Part shown: piece after piece, positions 1,433-48,081 of the stretch
Layout of the letters: each line of letters starts with the position of its first letter
How positions within the stretch are numbered: position 1 is the first letter of the stretch
Origin: Escherichia phage AN_ECEAS
Length of the DNA: 48,081 nucleotides
Direction: 5' to 3' (one strand)
Sequence record: PP944860.1
Notes under the pieces: generated by a model
Databases searched by the model: none
Told to the model about the DNA's origin: nothing
Seen by the model: the letters and a program-made list of their open reading frames with translations, nothing else
Made by a program: the position numbers and the translations under genes

Positions 1433-1936
1433 ATGGCAATTCGTTCTGTAGCACTGGCAGGTATGGTAGCTGATACTTCCCTGTATAATATCGATGGCGC
1501 TTGTGTAGTTGGCGGCAATGCTCAGGCTCGCATTCAGGTTGGCACAGCAGTCACTGTCACTCCAGACCCGCTAATCGATGGTCATAAAGTTGTTATCGCA
1601 GGTGCTTCAGCAACTCTTCCGGCTTACGGCGTTGTAGTTCGCTCTAGCTATGAAACTCCTGATGGCGCAGCTCGCGGCCAGGAAGCAGTTAACGTCATGA
1701 GTCATGGCCGCATCTGGATGCGCACCAGCCTGGCAGCAAAGCCAGCTTTCGGCTCTGAGGTTTTTGTAAATGGCTCTGGCGTTGCAGTCGCTGGCCCTGC
1801 TAGCGATTCAGTCTTCGCAACTGGCTGGACCTATGCTGGCGGCTTCGCTACAGCTTACACACCTGGTTTACTTCCGATTACCGAAGAACAATCCGTTGAT
1901 GGCGCAATCGTAGAAGTTCAGGTTAAGCAAAAGTAA
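1433..1936 (+). CDS. putative head decoration/minor capsid protein
   Basis: 167-aa ORF in head module, followed by a rho-independent terminator. Confidence 0.3.
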   Translation: MAIRSVALAGMVADTSLYNIDGACVVGGNAQARIQVGTAVTVTPDPLIDGHKVVIAGASATLPAYGVVVRSSYETPDGAARGQEAVNVMSHGRIWMRTSLAAKPAFGSEVFVNGSGVAVAGPASDSVFATGWTYAGGFATAYTPGLLPITEEQSVDGAIVEVQVKQK

Positions 1937-3581: not shown

Positions 3582-4526
3582 ATGGCTATTAAGTTTGACG
3601 CTGAACAAGCGAAAATCACTGCTCACCTAGAGCAGATGGGCGTAGATAAAGCTGACGCCGCTGGCATCTGGACCGTCAAGCAACTGACACAGACCCTGAA
3701 GCGCAACTACGAGCGTGAATATACCGACAACTCTGTTGTTAATATCTTCCCGATCAGTAACGAAATCCCTGCTTCTGCTAAATACTTCGAGTACCCAGAA
3801 TTCGATGGCGTTTCAATCGCTCAGATTATCGCAGACTACTCCGATGACCTGCCGCTTGTTGACGCGTTCATGACTGAGAAACAAGGTAAAGTGTTCCGCT
3901 TCGGTAACGCATTCCTGATCTCCATCGATGAAATCGCAGCTGGTGCAGCAACTGGTCAATCTCTGTCTGCTCGTAAACAGGCTCTGGCTTTTGAAGCTCA
4001 CGACAACCTGCTTGACAAACTGGTATGGTTTGGCTCTGCTCCGCACGGTATTAACAGCGTATTTAATACCCCCAACGCAAGCCGCGTAACCCCGAACGCA
4101 TGGGTTGATGCCGCTGCTGCTGTTAACGATATCACTCGAATGATTGATGCTATCGAAACTAACACGCAGGGTATGCATACTGCTACTGATATCATTCTGC
4201 CAGCCTCCGCTCGCCGCTTGATGCAGCAACTGGTTCCTGGTACTACGATTAGCTATGCTCAGCTGTTCGCAACTAACAATACCAGCGTAAATATTCGCTA
4301 TTTGCAGTTCCTGGACGATATTGATGGCGCTGGCACTAAAGCAGCTCTGGCGTTTGAAAAAGACCCGCTGAACATGAGTATTGAAATTCCTGAGGCAACC
4401 CACGTATTGCCGGGTCAGCCGAAAGATTTGCATTTCAAATACCCTGTTACTTCCAAGTCTACAGGTCTGGTTGTTTACCGACCTCTGACTCTTGCTATCA
4501 TGTCTGGCATCGAAATTACCGCATAA
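3582..4526 (+). CDS. putative major capsid protein
   Basis: 314 aa; strong sigma70-like promoter upstream, RBS AAGGAAG, strong terminator directly downstream; position in head module. Confidence 0.5.
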   Translation: MAIKFDAEQAKITAHLEQMGVDKADAAGIWTVKQLTQTLKRNYEREYTDNSVVNIFPISNEIPASAKYFEYPEFDGVSIAQIIADYSDDLPLVDAFMTEKQGKVFRFGNAFLISIDEIAAGAATGQSLSARKQALAFEAHDNLLDKLVWFGSAPHGINSVFNTPNASRVTPNAWVDAAAAVNDITRMIDAIETNTQGMHTATDIILPASARRLMQQLVPGTTISYAQLFATNNTSVNIRYLQFLDDIDGAGTKAALAFEKDPLNMSIEIPEATHVLPGQPKDLHFKYPVTSKSTGLVVYRPLTLAIMSGIEITA

Positions 4527-7203: not shown

Positions 7204-7222
7204 ATAGCACTTTTTGTTAAAG
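7204..7222 (+). promoter_or_regulatory. dyad-motif promoter element ATAGCACTTTTTGTTAAAG
   Basis: TAGCA-N5-TGTTA; TATAGT 7242-7247; CATCGAAA start region; 27-nt leader to ATG 7281. Confidence 0.6.
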
Positions 7223-11585: not shown

Positions 11586-11590
11586 ACTAA

Positions 11591-11611
11591 GGCCCATAGA
11601 GGGCCTTTTTT
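11591..11611 (+). terminator. rho-independent terminator-like hairpin
   Basis: GGCCC-ATAGA-GGGCC stem-loop plus T6. Confidence 0.6.
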
Positions 11612-11623
11612 ATTGGAGAGAAT

Positions 11624-25441: not shown

Positions 25442-25915
25442 TTACTCTTTAGCTTTTCGTGCTGCTTCGTTAGCGGCCTTAATCTTGCGCCATGATCGAC
25501 ACTCTGGCTTGGTGGCTAGCTCTGCTTCAGTAACTACGCGAAGCATATGACGCTTCTTACATCGAAGTGTTAGCGGCTTACCGTTTCCGTCGAATTGCAG
25601 GTCTGGTCGGCAGAACGTAGCTCGAAATCCTTCCTTATTTCTCTTATACGCATTGTGAGCTTTCTGCGCTCCTCGAGCCGAAATCATCCCGCGATCAAAC
25701 CATTGCTCTACAGTCTGGTGAGATACGTTTAACTGCTTTGCGATGTTCGCCTTTGTTCCATAGAAATCAAGAACCATCTCCAGGCGAGCACGTAGCCCAG
25801 CCTTTACCTCATCTTTCAATACGTAGTAGCCTGACGGTCGTTTGCGTTGCTTCTTGTCTTGTGTGCGTACCGTTCCGTTATTGCCGTTAATAGTTCGTTT
25901 GTCAATTTCACACAT
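25442..25915 (-). CDS. HTH DNA-binding protein (candidate transcription regulator)
   Basis: Basic protein with HTH-like segment IAKQLNVSHQTVEQWF; its RBS region abuts dyad motif 25928-25946. Confidence 0.4.
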   Translation of the reverse strand: MCEIDKRTINGNNGTVRTQDKKQRKRPSGYYVLKDEVKAGLRARLEMVLDFYGTKANIAKQLNVSHQTVEQWFDRGMISARGAQKAHNAYKRNKEGFRATFCRPDLQFDGNGKPLTLRCKKRHMLRVVTEAELATKPECRSWRKIKAANEAARKAKE

Positions 25916-25927
25916 CTCATTACCTCA

Positions 25928-25946
25928 ATAGCACTTTTTGTTAAAC
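25928..25946 (+). promoter_or_regulatory. dyad-motif promoter element ATAGCACTTTTTGTTAAAC
   Basis: Upstream of helicase gene; TATTAT-like hexamer ~20 bp downstream; 12 bp from start of divergent HTH gene. Confidence 0.55.
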
Positions 25947-43315: not shown

Positions 43316-43391
43316 GTTCTGCTGGCGTAACAGGATAACGCAAAGACCTCCTAAGTCTTAGTTACTGGTTCGAGTCCAGTGCGGAACACCA
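43316..43391 (+). tRNA. tRNA-Arg (anticodon CCU), CCA encoded
   Basis: Hand-folded cloverleaf: 7-bp acceptor stem, U8, D-arm GCGT/ACGC, anticodon stem AAGAC/GTCTT with loop CTCCTAA, T-arm ACTGG-TTCGAGT-CCAGT, discriminator A. Confidence 0.8.
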
Positions 43392-43635: not shown

Positions 43636-43804
43636 GCTTTCAATCCGATTAATGGGTCGTAGTTGCAAAAGTTGCACTCAAGAATTTATCGCGTCGGTTA
43701 CTGCTAAGTCCTCAGAGGAAGCAGTAGCGAAAGTTAAGGTAATGTCTGGTGCCGACCCGGATTACCACAAATTCCTAGTAGCTTACGTTCGTGAGCGAAA
43801 GTAA
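43616..43804 (+). CDS. hypothetical protein
   Basis: Overlapping ORF; terminator downstream. Confidence 0.35.
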   Translation: MQLWDVKLSIRLMGRSCKSCTQEFIASVTAKSSEEAVAKVKVMSGADPDYHKFLVAYVRERK

Positions 43805-43928: not shown

Positions 43929-44453
43929 ATGAAAGACGAAAACTTCACCAGTCAGGCGCAGGAAAAGGTCAGCTCTGGCAACTTTAAAGCCATGTACAAT
44001 AAAAAGTACTCAGACATTACAACGCTAGCCAAAAACCGAAGCATGACACCCGAACAGCTATTTGAATTCGCCGTGAAATACTTCTCATGGGCTGAGGACC
44101 AGGCAATCAAGGCAATCGAGACAGCCAGCTTCCAGGGTGTGGTAAAAGAGAGCCTGGTGCACAAACCACGAGTCTTCACGCTAACCGGATTCTGCCTTTA
44201 CTGCGGCGTCACCCATAGCGCCATCGAGAAATGGAGGAAGTCGGCTGGTTACGATGAGGTGATGGCATTCATTGATTCCGTGATTCGCGAGCAAAAGTAC
44301 CAGTTAGCAGCGTCCGGCATCATTAACCCTGGCATGATTTCTAAAGAGCTCGGTATCGACAAGCCGCAGGAGATTAACATCACCAGCACATCTTCAGCCA
44401 ACGACGTCGATACGATGAAAGAGGCGCTCGAATCGGTTATTAGCAAGTTGTAG
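43929..44453 (+). CDS. putative terminase small subunit
   Basis: 174 aa, RBS AAGGAGG, immediately upstream of HNH and TerL. Confidence 0.5.
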   Translation: MKDENFTSQAQEKVSSGNFKAMYNKKYSDITTLAKNRSMTPEQLFEFAVKYFSWAEDQAIKAIETASFQGVVKESLVHKPRVFTLTGFCLYCGVTHSAIEKWRKSAGYDEVMAFIDSVIREQKYQLAASGIINPGMISKELGIDKPQEINITSTSSANDVDTMKEALESVISKL

Positions 44454-44468
44454 CACTTTTTGTTAAAA
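44450..44468 (+). promoter_or_regulatory. dyad-motif promoter element GTAGCACTTTTTGTTAAAA
   Basis: GATAAT hexamer downstream; upstream of HNH gene 44521. Confidence 0.5.
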
Positions 44469-44520
44469 ATAGCGAACCAATCAGTGGGATAATGGGTCAC
44501 TAAATAAACAAGGAGAATAT

Positions 44521-44997
44521 ATGGATTGGGGTGATTTCTTCTATCTTAGTGATGATTCCGTTTCTGGTATAAAGTGGAAGGTTAATAAGGGTCGGTCAAT
44601 GGCTGGTGACGACGCTTTAACATCTGTTGGTAATGGATATTACAAAGGCAGACTCAACCAGAAGACAACGTACGCCCACAGGGTCGTTTACTTTCTTAAC
44701 TATGGCGTAATCCCTGATGTTATAGATCATATGGATGGTAATGGGCTTAACAACTCAATAGAAAACCTAAGGGATGGCACCACAGCCAAGAATATGCAAA
44801 ACAAGCTATGTAAGGGTTACAGCTACAATAAGAGGGATGACGTTTATTATGCTCAGGTAACTACAAATGGGGTGACTAAACATGTAGGTTCTTTTGCAAG
44901 CAAGGAATTGGCTATTGCTGCTTACCTAAAGGAGAAGGAATTGCAGCATGATTTCTATAACAAAGAGAGGAAGATATGCTTGTTTGGGAAAGTATGA
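44521..44997 (+). CDS. HNH homing endonuclease (terminase-associated position)
   Basis: Motif VIDHMDGNGLNNSIENLR plus AP2-like C-terminus; RBS AAGGAGAA; overlaps TerL start. Confidence 0.65.
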   Translation: MDWGDFFYLSDDSVSGIKWKVNKGRSMAGDDALTSVGNGYYKGRLNQKTTYAHRVVYFLNYGVIPDVIDHMDGNGLNNSIENLRDGTTAKNMQNKLCKGYSYNKRDDVYYAQVTTNGVTKHVGSFASKELAIAAYLKEKELQHDFYNKERKICLFGKV

Positions 44998-46538
44998 GCC
45001 AGCAGGAAAAGCTGGCTGTAAAACTTATATCAGAGAATAGTTTTGAGGGATTTTTAAGGTGCTGGTTTTCCATTACTCAGGGTGAGAGATACATCCCTAA
45101 CTGGCACCACAAGTATCTTTGCAGAATCATCGATGAGATTATCGCAGGTGAGCGTAAGGACACAATCATCAACATAGCACCCGGGAGTGGGAAGACAGAG
45201 ATAGCATCAATTCACTTCCCAGCCTACTCCATGGTTAAGTTGAAGAAGGTAAGGAACCTTAACATCTCGTTTGCCGACTCACTTGTTAAGCGTAACTCTA
45301 AGCGAGTGCGTGACCTGATTAAGTCGGTTGAGTTCCAGGAGTTGTGGCCCTGCAAGTTTGGCACATGTAAGGATGATGAGCTACAGATTCTGGATGAGTC
45401 TGGTAAGGTTCGGTTTGAGTCAATATCTAAGGCTGCTGGAGGCCAAATAACCGGCGCAAGGGGTGGATATATAACGGATTCATATAGCGGAGCGGTTCTG
45501 TTAGATGATTTTGACAAACCAGCCGACATGCTTTCTGCTGTTTTTCGCGCTAACAATCACGTGATGCTAAAGAATACAATACGCTCTCGTAGGGCGAGCT
45601 CCGTAAAAGGAAAGGCGACGCCGATTATCTCTATCCAACAGCGCCTTCATGTGAATGATAGTACGTGGTTCATGATGAATGGCGGTATGGGTATTAGCTT
45701 CGACTTGATTAAGATACCGGCGCTCGTAACTGAGGATTACGTCGAAACGCTTCCTGACTGGATTAAGCAGCAATTCATTGATGACGTTCTATCAAGCGAA
45801 TATATTGAGCGTGATGGTGTTAGGTACTATAGCTATTTCCCTGGCAAGGAATCTGTTCACGACCTAGTTGCAATGTGGGATTCTGATAGCTATACATTCC
45901 TTAGCCAGTATCAGCAAGAACCAGTAGCACTTGGCGGCAACCTGATTAACGTAGACTGGCTTCAACGCATTAGCGACACTCTGCGACCGCCAGCTAAGTA
46001 CGATTACAGGTTTATGGTCCTTGATACTGCGATGACAACCAAAAGTTACAGCGACTTTAGTGTCATGCAGCTATGGGGTTATAAGGATGGGAAGATTTAT
46101 CTGCTTGACCAGCGGCGCGGTAAATTTGAAGCTCCTGAGCTCGAGGCTGAGTTATTGAATTTCGAGAAGATGGCTAGGGCATCCAATCAGATAGATGGCA
46201 TCCTTCGTAAAATCATCATCGAGAAGAAAGCCTCTGGTATTGGCCTGATTCAATCAGCCGGAAGGGTTATGCGAACGCCTATCGAGCCGTACGTTCCTGA
46301 TAACGATAAGCTGACTCGCGTAATGAGTGCATTGCCGCAGATTAAAGCTGGTAACGTAATCCTTCCGGAGTCTGCTACTTGGCTTAATGGCTTGCTAACG
46401 GAGATTGCGGCATTCACGGCAGATGATTCACATGTTCACGATGACCAGATAGACTGTTTGACAATGGCTGTCAACCTGGTACTGAACATTGCAGAAGACC
46501 CTAAATCGAGGATGATGCGCCTCGCTGGCATCAAATAG
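44976..46538 (+). CDS. terminase large subunit
   Basis: Walker A IAPGSGKT, Walker B VLLDD, C-terminal nuclease acidic motifs; RBS AGAGAGGAAG. Confidence 0.8.
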   Translation: MLVWESMSQQEKLAVKLISENSFEGFLRCWFSITQGERYIPNWHHKYLCRIIDEIIAGERKDTIINIAPGSGKTEIASIHFPAYSMVKLKKVRNLNISFADSLVKRNSKRVRDLIKSVEFQELWPCKFGTCKDDELQILDESGKVRFESISKAAGGQITGARGGYITDSYSGAVLLDDFDKPADMLSAVFRANNHVMLKNTIRSRRASSVKGKATPIISIQQRLHVNDSTWFMMNGGMGISFDLIKIPALVTEDYVETLPDWIKQQFIDDVLSSEYIERDGVRYYSYFPGKESVHDLVAMWDSDSYTFLSQYQQEPVALGGNLINVDWLQRISDTLRPPAKYDYRFMVLDTAMTTKSYSDFSVMQLWGYKDGKIYLLDQRRGKFEAPELEAELLNFEKMARASNQIDGILRKIIIEKKASGIGLIQSAGRVMRTPIEPYVPDNDKLTRVMSALPQIKAGNVILPESATWLNGLLTEIAAFTADDSHVHDDQIDCLTMAVNLVLNIAEDPKSRMMRLAGIK

Positions 46539-46553
46539 CACGTTTTGCTAAAG
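46535..46553 (+). promoter_or_regulatory. dyad-motif promoter element ATAGCACGTTTTGCTAAAG
   Basis: Overlaps TerL stop; TATAGT 46574-46579; upstream of moron 46608. Confidence 0.55.
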
Positions 46554-46607
46554 ACGCGCCGCCAAGGATGGCTTATAGTTACTTCACGCAAACGAGAGGA
46601 GTAAAAA

Positions 46608-46961
46608 ATGAAAGCAGTATTTAAAGGGTATAAAAAAGCTGGTTATTTTGATTTTACCGTTGGTAAGATTTATGACTTATCAAGAACGCCTGGAAGTAAT
46701 AATGAATACGTCAAAGTTAAGGATGATAAAGGCTATTTGGGCGTAATTAATCTTAGTGTTTATGATTTCGAAGTTATAGAGCCTACCGATTTTGTCGTTA
46801 AAGGTGATAATTTTAAAGTTGAAAAGGCTGGGATTAAATACTTCATCAACAAAGACATAGTAACTAAAGAGGCATTTTATGAAGTCAGAAGGGAGGTTCG
46901 CCAGTTAACACTTAATGGAGTGAAAACATCATCAATCAAGTTCGAAGTAAAATTCGAGTAA
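46608..46961 (+). CDS. hypothetical protein (AT-rich moron between TerL and portal)
   Basis: Own dyad-motif promoter 46535-46553 and own terminator; RBS GAGAGGAG. Confidence 0.5.
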   Translation: MKAVFKGYKKAGYFDFTVGKIYDLSRTPGSNNEYVKVKDDKGYLGVINLSVYDFEVIEPTDFVVKGDNFKVEKAGIKYFINKDIVTKEAFYEVRREVRQLTLNGVKTSSIKFEVKFE

Positions 46962-46983
46962 CCATAAAAGCTATGCTAAACTA

Positions 46984-47005
46984 AGCCCCTAAATGGGGCT
47001 TTTTA
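46984..47005 (+). terminator. rho-independent terminator after moron 46608..46961
   Basis: AGCCCC-TAAAT-GGGGCT stem-loop plus T4. Confidence 0.6.
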
Positions 47006-47019
47006 TTGGAGCAAATAAA

Positions 47020-48081
47020 ATGGTAAAAGCAGATTCATACGCCACGCAATTTCTTGGTGGCTCCAGTGATGGTAGCGAGATTTACGGGCACTTTGGCAAC
47101 ACGTATCTTACACCTCCTTTCGCTGATTCACTGTACGCATCAAACTCAATTGTACGCCGCATCGTCGACACCATACCGGAGACAGCAATCGCCGCAGGTT
47201 TCCATATCGATGGTATTGATAACGAAGGTGAATTCTGGTCCAGGTGGGATTACCTGAAGGTTAACGAGTCAATCTCTGACGCATGGTCATGGGCGAGGTT
47301 ATTTGGCGGCTCTGCAATTGTGGCTATCGTTAAGGACAATCGTGCGCTAACTAGCCCGGTACGTGAAGGCGCGGAACTTGAATCACTTCGCGTTTATGAG
47401 CGTAGCCAGGTAAGAGTTCAGACTAAGGAGGAAAACCCTCGCAATGTGCGATTCGGTAAGCCATTAACGTATCGCATCACGCCAGAAGGTGGCGCCATGT
47501 TTTATGATGTGCACTACTCGCGAGTTCACATTATTGATGGCGAGAAGATTCCTAGTTCATTGCGTCGCGGTAATGACGGGTGGGGTGCTAGCGTTCTGGT
47601 TCCTGACCTGCTTGAATCAATCAAGGATTATCAGACGTGTGAGAAACTGGCAACTCAGTTATTGCGCCGCAAGCAGCAGGCGGTGTGGAAGGCTAAAGGC
47701 CTTGCTGAACTGTGTGACGACGCGGAAGGTTTTGGTGCGGCGAGGTTGAGGCTTGCCCAGGTTGATGATAACTCTGGCGTTGGTCGCGCGATTGGTATCG
47801 ACGCTGAAGCTGAAGAGTACAGCGTTCTTAACTCGGATATTGGTGGGATTGATGGATTCCTCGATAAGAAGTTCGACAGAATTGTTGCTCTGAGCGGTAT
47901 CCATGAAATCATTCTCAAAGGTCGTAACGTTGGCGGGTTGTCATCAAGCCAGAATACAGCGCTAGAGACTTTCCACAAGCTAATCGACCGCAAGCGCAAT
48001 GAGGAGTTACTTCCAGTGCTTGGTTTCTTAATCCCATTCATCACAACCGAGCAGGAATGGTCAGTTGAGTTTAACCCTCTA
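47020..48081 (+). CDS. putative portal protein, N-terminal part (ORF open at window end, continues at 1..285)
   Basis: ATG 47020 with RBS GGAG; no stop before window end; position after terminase. Confidence 0.5.
   Translation, partial: MVKADSYATQFLGGSSDGSEIYGHFGNTYLTPPFADSLYASNSIVRRIVDTIPETAIAAGFHIDGIDNEGEFWSRWDYLKVNESISDAWSWARLFGGSAIVAIVKDNRALTSPVREGAELESLRVYERSQVRVQTKEENPRNVRFGKPLTYRITPEGGAMFYDVHYSRVHIIDGEKIPSSLRRGNDGWGASVLVPDLLESIKDYQTCEKLATQLLRRKQQAVWKAKGLAELCDDAEGFGAARLRLAQVDDNSGVGRAIGIDAEAEEYSVLNSDIGGIDGFLDKKFDRIVALSGIHEIILKGRNVGGLSSSQNTALETFHKLIDRKRNEELLPVLGFLIPFITTEQEWSVEFNPL
48007..48081. repeat. terminal direct repeat (identical to 1-75)
   Basis: Exact 75-bp identity of the two window ends. 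Confidence 0.95.

What the first reader, a model, noticed from the sequence alone, without database searches (positions are those of the whole stretch)
46535..47005. AT-rich moron with own promoter and terminator inserted between terminase large subunit and portal genes
46608..46961 (117 aa, Lys/Asp-rich) is bracketed by dyad-motif promoter 46535-46553 and terminator 46984-47005 and is markedly more AT-rich than TerL and portal. Insertions at the terminase-portal boundary are unusual and make this a candidate accessory or anti-defence gene.
Basis: partly seen in the sequence, partly recalled or inferred. Interest (0 to 1): 0.5.

Follow-up and report, generated by a model that had tools for sequence, protein, structure and literature searches.

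The report
Accessory small gene between terminase and portal
A real, unusually AT-rich 117-codon gene with its own phage-type promoter sits between the terminase and portal genes of this T1-like coliphage; it belongs to a small, optional and fast-evolving phage gene family of unknown function, so it is a fairly ordinary accessory ("moron-like") gene, not a packaging component.

Summary
The window is Escherichia phage ES (Drexlerviridae, Braunvirinae). ORF 46608..46961 lies between TerL and the portal gene. Its GC is 0.328 against 0.46-0.50 in the flanks, the lowest 0.23% of the genome. The dyad motif at 46533-46553 precedes it and a hairpin terminator at 46983-47005 follows it.

- **Optional gene:** homologues occur in 39 phage records, against 938 that carry this TerL type. 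T1, DTL, Rao1, AHS24 and BEK6 lack it.
- **Independent history:** the cassette evolves separately from its flanks. ES and IMM-001 share 85% of TerL, 57.5% of the cassette and 88% of portal.
- **Second sites:** paralogues with the same promoter-ORF-terminator layout sit between tail genes L and K in other phages. A promoterless copy sits beside DNA ligase in Vequintavirinae.
- **Promoter:** it is the phage's own generic repeat, already described in phage TLS, not a foreign element.
- **Terminator:** it is backbone. Relatives without the gene keep it.

The product is phrog_14592, labelled "virion structural protein" with no experiment I could trace. AlphaFold predicts an SH3-like barrel joined to a small alpha/beta domain. 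No family of known function matches. An anti-defence role is untested.

The parts
46533..46553 (+). Copy of the T1-like 21-nt intergenic repeat (AAATAGCACGTTTTGCTAAAG), with dyad TAGCA-N5-TGCTA. The TerL stop codon TAG (46536-46538) forms its first bases.
   Evidence: 16 copies in the window against 1.8 expected. It matches the TLS consensus aaATAGCACnnnTTGnTAAAA at 20 of 21 positions. It is conserved upstream of every locus-1 homologue examined.
46574..46579 (+). -10-like hexamer TATAGT, 23 nt after the repeat core. The inferred transcription start is near 46586.
   Evidence: 15 of 17 good repeat copies carry a 5/6 TATAAT match 21-23 nt downstream. The hexamer is conserved in relatives. The start site is inferred, not shown.
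46594..46601 (+). Shine-Dalgarno sequence GAGAGGAG, 6 nt before the ATG.
   Evidence: Read directly from the sequence. The same ACGAGAGGAG leader occurs in other repeat-driven units and in relatives.
46608..46961 (+). Coding sequence of 117 aa (13.5 kDa, pI 9.1), a member of phrog_14592. Predicted N-terminal SH3-like barrel (residues 1-57), disordered variable linker (61-72) and C-terminal beta-beta-alpha-beta domain (76-116).
46915..46982 (+). DNA-level conserved 3' end of the ORF (SSIKFEVKFE*) plus the 'ccataaaagctatgctaaacta' junction. Probable recombination boundary of the cassette.
   Evidence: Mean pairwise identity is 0.70-0.89 here against 0.14-0.6 in the ORF body across 8 phages. Megablast hits H26-H38 begin at window 46926.
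46983..47005 (+). Intrinsic terminator (AAGCCCC-TAAAT-GGGGCTT followed by TTTAT). It is a backbone element shared with phages that lack the ORF. The portal RBS (GGAG) follows directly.
   Evidence: Terminator scan and RNA fold. Present between TerL and portal in Rao1, DTL, AHS24, BEK6 and in T1.
44976..46538 (+). Terminase large subunit, the left flank.
   Evidence: Pfam Terminase_6C. GenBank terL.
47020..48081 (+). Portal protein, the right flank. It runs off the end of the window.
   Evidence: Pfam Phage_portal_3, E 1e-59. GenBank DUF1073 protein.

Best explanation
The feature is a dispensable accessory gene cassette, moron-like in the broad sense, of T1-like coliphages. It was inserted between the TerL stop codon and the ancestral TerL-portal terminator.

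How it is expressed: the cassette brings a complete portable expression module. This consists of the family's generic 21-nt repeat with dyad TAGCA-N5-TGCTA, a -10 hexamer 22-23 nt downstream, a conserved leader and a strong RBS. The 117-codon gene can therefore be transcribed on its own by host RNA polymerase. Most transcripts should stop at the backbone terminator just before the portal gene.

What it encodes: a small soluble intracellular protein with an SH3-like beta-barrel, a hypervariable linker and a small alpha/beta domain. It is not part of the core packaging or assembly machinery.

What it most likely does: it binds a host or host-defence protein during infection, in a counter-defence or host-takeover role.

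Shown: presence/absence polymorphism, evolution independent of the flanks, reuse of the module at a second locus, purifying selection, and the predicted fold. Inferred: promoter activity, timing of expression, intracellular action, and the host-interaction function. My confidence is about 0.8 that this is a non-essential accessory cassette and about 0.3 that its role is specifically counter-defence or host interaction. The score below is for the combined statement.
For: - **Patchy distribution.** TerL C-terminus relatives occur in 938 phage records, 121 of them at 60% identity or more. The ORF family occurs in only 39.
- **Gene-less relatives.** T1, DTL, Rao1, AHS24 and BEK6 go TerL-terminator-portal with 36-54 nt between the genes.
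- **Mosaicism.** ES versus IMM-001: TerL 85%, cassette 57.5%, portal 88%. ACG-M12 versus phiEB49: TerL 68.5%, cassette 94.5%.
- **Divergence pattern.** The ORF body is the divergence hot spot while its ends are conserved.
- **Same module at a second locus.** Repeat + TATAGT + ACGAGAGGAG leader + AT-rich paralogue + hairpin + TTTTTTATTGGAG lies between tail genes L and K in AugustePiccard and ACG-M12. phiEB49, JulesPiccard and BEK6 also have paralogues away from the TerL-portal junction. ES has no insert at the L|K junction.
- **Non-structural context elsewhere.** In Vequintavirinae W70/A73 the homologue is embedded in a run of small ORFs next to DNA ligase.
- **Real coding gene under selection.** dN/dS is 0.15 and AlphaFold2 pLDDT is 82.7.
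- **Repeat geometry.** 15 of 17 copies have a -10 hexamer at 21-23 nt and a start codon 68-83 nt from the repeat. This agrees with TLS, where repeats lie about 76 nt upstream of start codons in the direction of transcription.
- **No free structural niche.** ES already encodes a dedicated cement/decoration protein at 1433..1936, PF22758 E 2e-21.
- **Composition.** The gene is among the most AT-rich 0.23% of the genome.
Against: - No functional evidence of any kind exists. There is no hit to anti-defence or defence-related models or to any characterised family.
- RefSeq and PHROGs call the family 'virion structural protein'.
- Both Drexlerviridae insertion sites lie inside the late structural operon.
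- The repeat's promoter function is unproven. The TLS authors also considered stoperator, enhancer-site and UP-element readings.
- The repeat also precedes ordinary late genes: HNH-TerL at 44451 and the tail chaperones at 7205. It therefore gives no evidence of special timing.
- The terminator is not cassette-specific at this site.
Confidence: 0.55

Rival explanations
1. It is a minor, optional virion protein, such as an accessory head or tail decoration, as the RefSeq/PHROG label 'virion structural protein' implies. Its own promoter makes it in quantity late in infection, and it binds the particle through its beta-rich domains.
For: - phrog_14592 is filed under 'head and packaging' as 'virion structural protein', and RefSeq uses that name for Rtp22, Jk06 JK_35, phiEB49 gp57/gp37 and ACG-M12 gp63/gp45.
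- Both Drexlerviridae loci lie inside structural modules, TerL|portal and tail L|K.
- A small beta-rich two-domain protein driven by a strong RBS and its own promoter fits an abundant product.
Against: - I could trace no experiment behind the label.
- Most relatives with near-identical virion genes lack the gene.
- In Vequintavirinae it lies beside DNA ligase among small non-structural ORFs.
- ES already has a cement protein.
- There is no structural similarity to known decoration proteins.
Confidence: 0.2
2. The selected function is regulatory. The cassette matters mainly because it delivers an extra promoter upstream of the portal and head genes (or of the tail K-I-J genes at the second locus). 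Read-through of the terminator would boost downstream late expression, and the ORF itself would be of secondary importance.
For: - The upstream promoter module is better conserved (0.75-0.77) than the ORF body (0.14-0.6).
- No other repeat or consensus promoter lies between 46536 and the portal start.
- The same module was reused upstream of another late gene block.
Against: - A good intrinsic terminator lies between the ORF and the downstream gene at both loci.
- The ORF is kept intact with conserved N- and C-termini, dN/dS 0.15 and a confident fold.
- A promoterless, terminator-less copy is kept in Vequintavirinae.
- Gene-less relatives manage without any promoter here.
Confidence: 0.1
3. 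It is a packaging accessory factor that works with TerL or portal, for example by modulating headful packaging or terminase-portal docking, and it is encoded next to its partners.
For: Its position between TerL and portal is conserved in 37 or so Drexlerviridae records and in metagenomic contigs. The ES copy is basic, pI 9.1.
Against: - It is absent from most phages with the same TerL/portal type, including T1.
- Paralogues lie in the tail module and beside DNA ligase.
- The family is generally acidic, median pI 5.05, so the basic charge of the ES copy is not conserved.
- The alleles do not co-vary with TerL.
Confidence: 0.05

Closest known systems
Morons of tailed phages (Juhala/Hendrix concept: an extra gene with its own promoter and terminator between genes that are adjacent in relatives)
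   Same: The gene is present or absent between two otherwise adjacent late genes. Its composition differs from its flanks. It has its own promoter-like element upstream and a terminator downstream, and it evolves as an independent mosaic unit.
   Different: - The phage is virulent, so there is no prophage expression or lysogenic conversion.
- The promoter is the phage's own generic repeat, not a foreign one.
- The terminator at this site belongs to the backbone.
- The family circulates only among coliphages and is not known from bacterial genes.
phrog_14592 / RefSeq 'virion structural protein' (Rtp22, Jk06 JK_35, phiEB49 gp57 and gp37, ACG-M12 gp63 and gp45, Bas01 gp5 and gp24)
   Same: Full-length sequence membership with E 9e-29, and all 33 aligned relatives hit the same PHROG. 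The genomic position is the same as Rtp22, gp57 and their equivalents.
   Different: - The ES allele is only 32-50% identical to the named members.
- It is basic where the family is acidic.
- It is the most AT-rich of the locus-1 alleles examined, 0.328 against 0.33-0.44.
- The 'structural' label itself is unverified.
21-nt intergenic direct repeats of phage TLS, T1, Rtp and Rogue1 (German et al. 2024, PMC11447400), and the 'transcripton' organisation of the T1 late region
   Same: The consensus, the orientation and the distance to the start codon all match. The late region is broken up by many intrinsic terminators.
   Different: In ES I additionally see a fixed -10 hexamer 21-23 nt downstream. 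That places the dyad centre near -42/-43, as at class II activator sites. The TLS paper leaves the function open.
Gp54 of phage Bas11 (PDB 9axb): a small, non-essential SH3-like beta-barrel protein of a T1-like phage that triggers the CapRel-SJ46 defence
   Different: - There is no sequence similarity.
- Gp54 is a single six-stranded barrel of 66 aa, whereas this protein has a second domain.
- This is an analogy only, not evidence of relationship.

Membership tests
Moron (extra transcription unit in a phage genome) | Gene present between two genes that are directly adjacent in related phages | tested here: met
   TerL and portal are separated by only 36-54 nt in T1, DTL, Rao1, AHS24 and BEK6. 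Homologues occur in 39 records against 938 with this TerL type.
Moron (extra transcription unit in a phage genome) | Own promoter immediately upstream | tested here: inconclusive
   The repeat + TATAGT + leader module is present and conserved. It is not a canonical sigma-70 promoter by the consensus scan, and its activity has never been measured.
Moron (extra transcription unit in a phage genome) | Own terminator immediately downstream, acquired with the gene | tested here: not met
   A terminator is present, but the same element exists in phages without the gene. At the second locus (tail L|K) the terminator does come with the cassette.
Moron (extra transcription unit in a phage genome) | Nucleotide composition distinct from neighbouring genes | tested here: met
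   GC 0.328 against 0.461 and 0.496, the lowest 0.23% of windows. The trait is allele-specific: the Rtp and Jk06 alleles are 0.43-0.44.
Moron (extra transcription unit in a phage genome) | Expressed from a prophage, or of benefit to the lysogen | not testable with these tools
   I did not check this genome for lysogeny genes. That Drexlerviridae are virulent phages is established knowledge, and the SU57 paper title calls that relative a virulent T1-like phage. Expression was not measured.
phrog_14592 ('virion structural protein') | Full-length match to the family profile | tested here: met
   E 9.3e-29, residues 1-117 on profile positions 2-116 of 116. All 33 of 33 aligned relatives match.
phrog_14592 ('virion structural protein') | Physical presence in virions | not testable with these tools
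   No proteomic or structural report was found. The phiEB49 and Rtp papers are not held in the library.
T1-like 21-nt intergenic repeat (TLS DR element) | Sequence consensus aaATAGCACnnnTTGnTAAAA | tested here: met
   46533-46553, AAATAGCACGTTTTGCTAAAG, matches at 20 of 21 positions.
T1-like 21-nt intergenic repeat (TLS DR element) | Intergenic, in the direction of transcription, about 76 nt upstream of a start codon | tested here: met
   The motif core starts 72 nt before the ATG (75 nt from the start of the full repeat), on the same strand as the gene.
SH3-like small beta-barrel fold | Five-stranded barrel superposable on SH3 domains | tested here: inconclusive
Known anti-phage-defence or counter-defence protein families | Sequence match to a described family | tested here: not met
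   No PADLOC hit at E up to 1. No Pfam or NCBIfam hit. No dedicated anti-defence library was available.
Homing endonuclease or other selfish nuclease gene | HNH, GIY-YIG or LAGLIDADG nuclease domain | tested here: not met
   No Pfam domain was found. The neighbouring ORF 44521..44997 is the HNH gene.

The most novel reading that the evidence does not exclude
The phrog_14592 proteins are a previously unrecognised family of counter-defence or defence-trigger proteins of T1-like and rV5-like coliphages. They would be carried on a self-contained 'repeat promoter-ORF-terminator' cassette that hops between intergenic sites of the late operon, and its hypervariable middle would reflect an arms race with host immunity. 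A related possibility is that the dyad repeat centred near -42 is the binding site of a phage-encoded class-II-type activator, so that these cassettes plug into a phage-wide regulon.
Probability: 0.25. Interest if true: 0.6.

Novelty: new member of a known kind. Interest (0 to 1): 0.3.

Why it matters
This result corrects two tempting readings. The gene is not a packaging component, despite its position. There is also no traceable evidence that it is a virion protein, despite its database label.

It marks the TerL|portal junction and the tail L|K junction of Braunvirinae and Rogunavirinae as exchange hot spots. A small gene family is swapped, lost and duplicated there together with a portable expression module. 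Loci of this kind are where counter-defence genes have often been found, so the family is a reasonable low-cost candidate for deletion and host-panel tests in the BASEL phages Bas01 and Bas02, which carry two copies each.

It also gives the published but unexplained T1-like 21-nt repeats a sharper, testable geometry: a -10 hexamer at a fixed 22 nt.

Tried and rejected
- **Pseudogene argument.** I first took the 'frameshifted' copies in ACG-M12 and phiEB49 as evidence of decay. The break is an A7 versus A8 homopolymer. The repaired frame shows dN/dS 0.15, with the part after the shift fully conserved. It is probably a sequencing artefact, so I dropped the argument.
- **Nucleic-acid binding.** The basic pI of the ES protein suggested this. 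I rejected it as a family trait because 30 of 33 members are acidic.
- **Distant large-protein hits.** P0041-P0044 in the 1.84-billion-protein search are Ig, lectin or repeat proteins and are spurious.
- **Portal-based locus search.** The search for related loci with the portal protein in IMG/VR returned nothing. With the family alignment it returned only 3 loci.
- **Unavailable library.** The AFDB50 fold library was not on the machine.
- **RNA families.** Rfam gave only a sub-threshold terminator-like match.
- **Paralogue in this genome.** There is none at E below 0.01.
- **Literature.** Searches for locus tags, proteomics and transcription start sites in Drexlerviridae found nothing on this gene.
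- **Direction of the event.** Outgroup comparison favours insertion (T1 and most TerL relatives lack the gene). However, the 'AAATAGC' left-half remnant in DTL and BEK6 could also mean secondary deletions. This was not resolved per lineage.
Full report
**Identity of the window.** The region 44900-48081 is 100% identical to Escherichia phage ES, OR466728.1, 48,315 bp, Drexlerviridae, Braunvirinae. Window position equals record position + 43,646. The local gene order is:
- TerS, 43929..44453 (GP3_package)
- HNH endonuclease, 44521..44997
- TerL, 44976..46538 (Terminase_6C)
- the ORF in question, 46608..46961
- portal, from 47020 (Phage_portal_3, E 1e-59)

GenBank calls the ORF a hypothetical protein, WNO47587.1.

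**Checking the observation.**
- *ORF and ribosome-binding site.* The ORF is real, with an ATG start and 117 aa. A strong Shine-Dalgarno sequence, GAGAGGAG, lies 6 nt upstream.
- *Composition.* GC is 0.328 and GC3 0.297. TerL is 0.461/0.507, portal is 0.496/0.496 and the genome is 0.441. Only 0.23% of all 354-nt windows are as AT-rich, z = -2.9. The other very AT-rich stretches mostly lie next to further copies of the same repeat.
- *Dyad.* TAGCACGTTTTGCTA at 46536-46550 is one of 16 matches at up to 3 mismatches, against 1.8 expected. None of 100 shuffles reached 16.
- *Terminator.* The scan finds a 7-bp stem with 5 G-C pairs at 46983-47001, then a T tract. The intergenic RNA folds at -16.5 kcal/mol, z = -2.2.
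- *Protein composition.* It is Lys-rich (17 K) but has only 8 Asp. It is 13.5 kDa with pI 9.1 and has no hydrophobic segment.

The description is therefore correct apart from 'Asp-rich'.

**The upstream element.** The dyad is the core of a 21-nt repeat already published for the T1-like phage TLS. Its consensus is aaATAGCACnnnTTGnTAAAA. TLS has 18 intergenic copies, in the direction of transcription, about 76 nt upstream of start codons. The authors say similar repeats occur in T1, Rtp and Rogue1. They left the function open between stoperator, enhancer site and UP element (PMC11447400).

In ES, 15 of 17 good copies are followed 21-23 nt later by a 5/6 match to TATAAT. A start codon lies 68-83 nt from the start of the motif, usually after a CATCGAAA...GAGAGG leader. 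The copy at 46533-46553 fits this pattern: TATAGT at 46574-46579 and the ATG 72 nt from the motif core.

The TTGCTA half-site is too far from the -10 (22-23 nt) to serve as a normal -35. The plain sigma-70 scan accordingly calls nothing here. Counting back from an inferred start near 46586, the dyad centre falls at about -42/-43. That is the geometry of class II activator sites. This last point is my inference.

The repeat also precedes ordinary late genes: HNH-TerL at 44451 and the tail chaperone genes at 7205. It is therefore the phage's generic expression signal, not a foreign promoter. Promoter activity itself remains unproven.

**Comparative anatomy of the locus.** tblastn finds homologues at 32-50% identity in 38 other phage records. 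Apart from the two Vequintavirinae records, those whose context I inspected have it between TerL and portal. They include Rtp rtp22, Jk06 JK_35, phiEB49 gp57, ACG-M12 gp63, CEB_EC3a gp67, Bas01 gp5, Opt-719 and IMM-001. Two metagenomic contigs show the same order.

The C-terminal 120 aa of TerL has relatives in 938 phage records, 121 of them at 60% identity or more. The gene is therefore a minority trait. In Rao1, DTL, AHS24, BEK6 and T1 the TerL stop is followed within 36-54 nt by the portal start.

Those gene-less junctions still contain the element '(t)gataaacta-GCCCC..GGGGC-ttttttattggag-ATG'. In T1 and AHS24 it is annotated as a rho-independent terminator. The terminator is therefore backbone. 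The indel consists of the repeat promoter plus the ORF, and it begins right at the TerL stop codon, which is the TAG of TAGCAC. T1 (Tunavirinae) and most other TerL relatives have no detectable homologue, so insertion is the more parsimonious direction. Later losses in individual lineages are not excluded.

**Independent evolution of the cassette.**
- Across eight phages, mean pairwise DNA identity is 0.64-0.85 in the TerL 3' end and 0.75-0.77 in the promoter module.
- It falls to 0.14-0.6 in the ORF body.
- It rises to 0.82-0.89 over the last ~45 nt of the ORF plus the terminator.
- ES and IMM-001 share 85% of TerL and 88% of portal but only 57.5% of the cassette (34.5% at the protein level).
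- ACG-M12 and phiEB49 show the reverse: TerL 68.5%, cassette 94.5%.

This is the signature of allele swapping by recombination in conserved boundary sequences.

**A second insertion site and a third context.** A divergent branch of the family lies between the lambda-L-like and K-like minor tail genes in AugustePiccard (bas01_0024) and ACG-M12 (gp45). Its C-terminus reads ...MNGxDVTKSFF...GVSVFIDFEV. phiEB49 gp37, JulesPiccard and BEK6 have hits to this branch at comparable positions away from TerL, although I did not fetch their contexts.

These copies carry the same layout: repeat, TATAGT, CATCGAAACGAGAGGAG leader, an AT-rich ORF (GC 0.34-0.37 against 0.45 in the flanks), then 'taaactag', a hairpin and 'ttttttattggag'. 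ES has no insert at that junction and no terminator there. At the second locus the terminator therefore does travel with the cassette. ES has no paralogue anywhere in its genome.

In the Vequintavirinae phages W70 and A73, and in a 140-kb IMG/VR contig, a homologue sits in a tightly packed run of small ORFs next to DNA ligase. It has no repeat and no terminator. That context is not structural.

**The protein.** A profile search of 1.84 billion representative proteins returns only about 26 genuine clusters. All are stand-alone proteins of 100-140 aa. The four larger hits are spurious Ig or lectin repeat proteins.

All members fall in phrog_14592, 'virion structural protein'. Nothing matches in Pfam, NCBIfam, PADLOC or PDB sequences.

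The alignment shows three parts: a conserved N-terminal block (MKAVFKGY..FTxGKxY..DDxG..YDFE), a hypervariable linker with indels, and a conserved C-terminal block (KYxINGxxV..F....GV..SSIKFEVKFE).

The family is acidic, with median pI 5.05, and the ES copy is the exception. Purifying selection is evident, with dN/dS 0.15 between CEB_EC3a and ACG-M12. The apparent frameshift in ACG-M12 and phiEB49 is an A7/A8 homopolymer difference and is probably an artefact.

**What it most likely is.** The best-supported reading is a dispensable accessory cassette with its own expression module. It encodes a small soluble protein that is not part of the core packaging or assembly machinery. ES already has a dedicated cement protein (PF22758). 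I think a host-interaction role, meaning counter-defence or host takeover through protein binding, is the most likely function. The reasons are the patchy distribution, the hypervariable centre, the allele swapping and the non-structural context in Vequintavirinae. This is inference, at roughly 0.3.

The main rival, at about 0.2, is an optional virion decoration protein, as the database label says. I could find no experiment behind that label, but I also cannot exclude it. Two weaker rivals remain:
- *Promoter delivery.* This fits poorly with the terminator downstream and with the conserved ORF.
- *Packaging co-factor.* This fits poorly with the gene's absence from T1 and with paralogues located elsewhere.

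**Comparison with known things.** The feature behaves like a moron in three of the classical respects: extra gene, own promoter-like signal and deviant composition. It fails the 'own terminator' criterion at this site, and the prophage-expression criterion does not apply to a virulent phage family. It is a member of an existing but uncharacterised PHROG. Both the repeat and the terminator-punctuated late region were already described for T1 and TLS.

**Verdict.** The finding is a new member of a known kind and of modest interest (0.3). The points worth keeping are the cassette's reuse at two late-operon junctions, its mosaic behaviour, and the fixed repeat-to--10 geometry. Together these make both the gene family and the unexplained T1-like repeat experimentally approachable.

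Noticed in passing
window 7205, 18477(-), 20606, 24397, 25929, 27335, 29565, 29819, 32300, 33387, 37796(-), 38413(-), 39653, 40164, 40840, 44451, 46536: A genome-wide family of the 21-nt T1-like repeat (TAGCACnnnTTGCTA core). It nearly always has a TATAAT-like hexamer 21-23 nt downstream and a CATCGAAA..GAGAGG leader. The dyad centre falls near -42/-43 of the inferred start, which is the geometry of a class II activator site. The repeat is published for TLS, but its function is unresolved.
   Followed up: partly
window 25442-25915 (-), next to the repeat copy at 25929: A 157-aa ORF with sub-threshold Cro/HTH matches (P22_Cro, E 6e-5). It corresponds in position to the ORF annotated 'transcriptional regulator' (ST23) in T1. 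It is a candidate for the factor that binds the dyad repeat. I did not test this.
   Followed up: no
window 44451-44997: An HNH endonuclease gene (HNH_3, E 4e-11) lies between TerS and TerL and overlaps the TerL start by 22 nt. It is preceded by its own repeat copy at 44451. Relatives vary: DTL, CEB_EC3a and ACG-M12 have no HNH gene here, and Bas01 has a homing endonuclease between TerL and the ORF homologue instead.
   Followed up: partly
L018 2501-2818 (Bas01), L019 2510-2863 (ACG-M12); equivalent ES junction at window ~12379: Paralogues of the ORF family are inserted between the minor tail genes L and K in other Drexlerviridae, with the same repeat-ORF-terminator layout. ES lacks this insert. 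BEK6 has no copy at the TerL|portal junction, but tblastn finds a paralogue of this branch elsewhere in its genome (15676-15978); I did not fetch that context.
   Followed up: yes
L014 4001-4336 (phage W70, Vequintavirinae); L013 4001-4372 (140-kb IMG/VR contig): A family member is embedded in a run of small ORFs directly upstream of DNA ligase, with no repeat and no terminator. This shows transfer of the gene between unrelated coliphage groups.
   Followed up: partly
L006 ~2690-2700 and L004 ~2690-2700: The ORF homologues of ACG-M12 (also ECH1 and SCS31) and of phiEB49 are annotated as truncated because of an A7 run where CEB_EC3a has A8. The frame after the shift is perfectly conserved, so this is probably a homopolymer sequencing error or slippage, not a pseudogene.
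   Followed up: yes
window 46915-46982: The last ~45 nt of the ORF and the following 20 nt are more conserved at the DNA level (0.82-0.89) than the neighbouring TerL and portal coding sequences. This holds even between alleles with about 33% protein identity. It is a likely recombination boundary, or an unrecognised cis element in front of the terminator.
   Followed up: partly
window 11589-11618; also 4532, 7178, 8192, 13712, 17181: The late operon is punctuated by many intrinsic terminators. The one at 11589 is followed by the identical TTTTTATTGGAG + ATG arrangement seen before the portal gene. How downstream late genes are transcribed through these terminators is unclear.
   Followed up: no
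window 43316-43391: A tRNA-Arg (anticodon CCT) lies upstream of the terminase genes, as reported for other T1-like phages.
   Followed up: no
window 1 / 43647 / 48081: The window is a circular permutation of the GenBank record. Window position 43647 equals record position 1. Read that way, the window ends at record position 4435 and lacks about 234 bp of the 48,315-bp record.
   Followed up: no
phage records PP134917.1 and PQ314493.1; MF630922.1: 'Pseudomonas phage PsgS01F' has the same length (44,679 bp) as Escherichia phage UALMA_PCEc3 and gives near-identical matches, so its host label is doubtful. IMM-001 is a 32-kb 'complete genome' with implausible product names such as 30S ribosomal protein S4 and beta-ketoacyl synthase, and its copy of the ORF is not annotated.
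   Followed up: no
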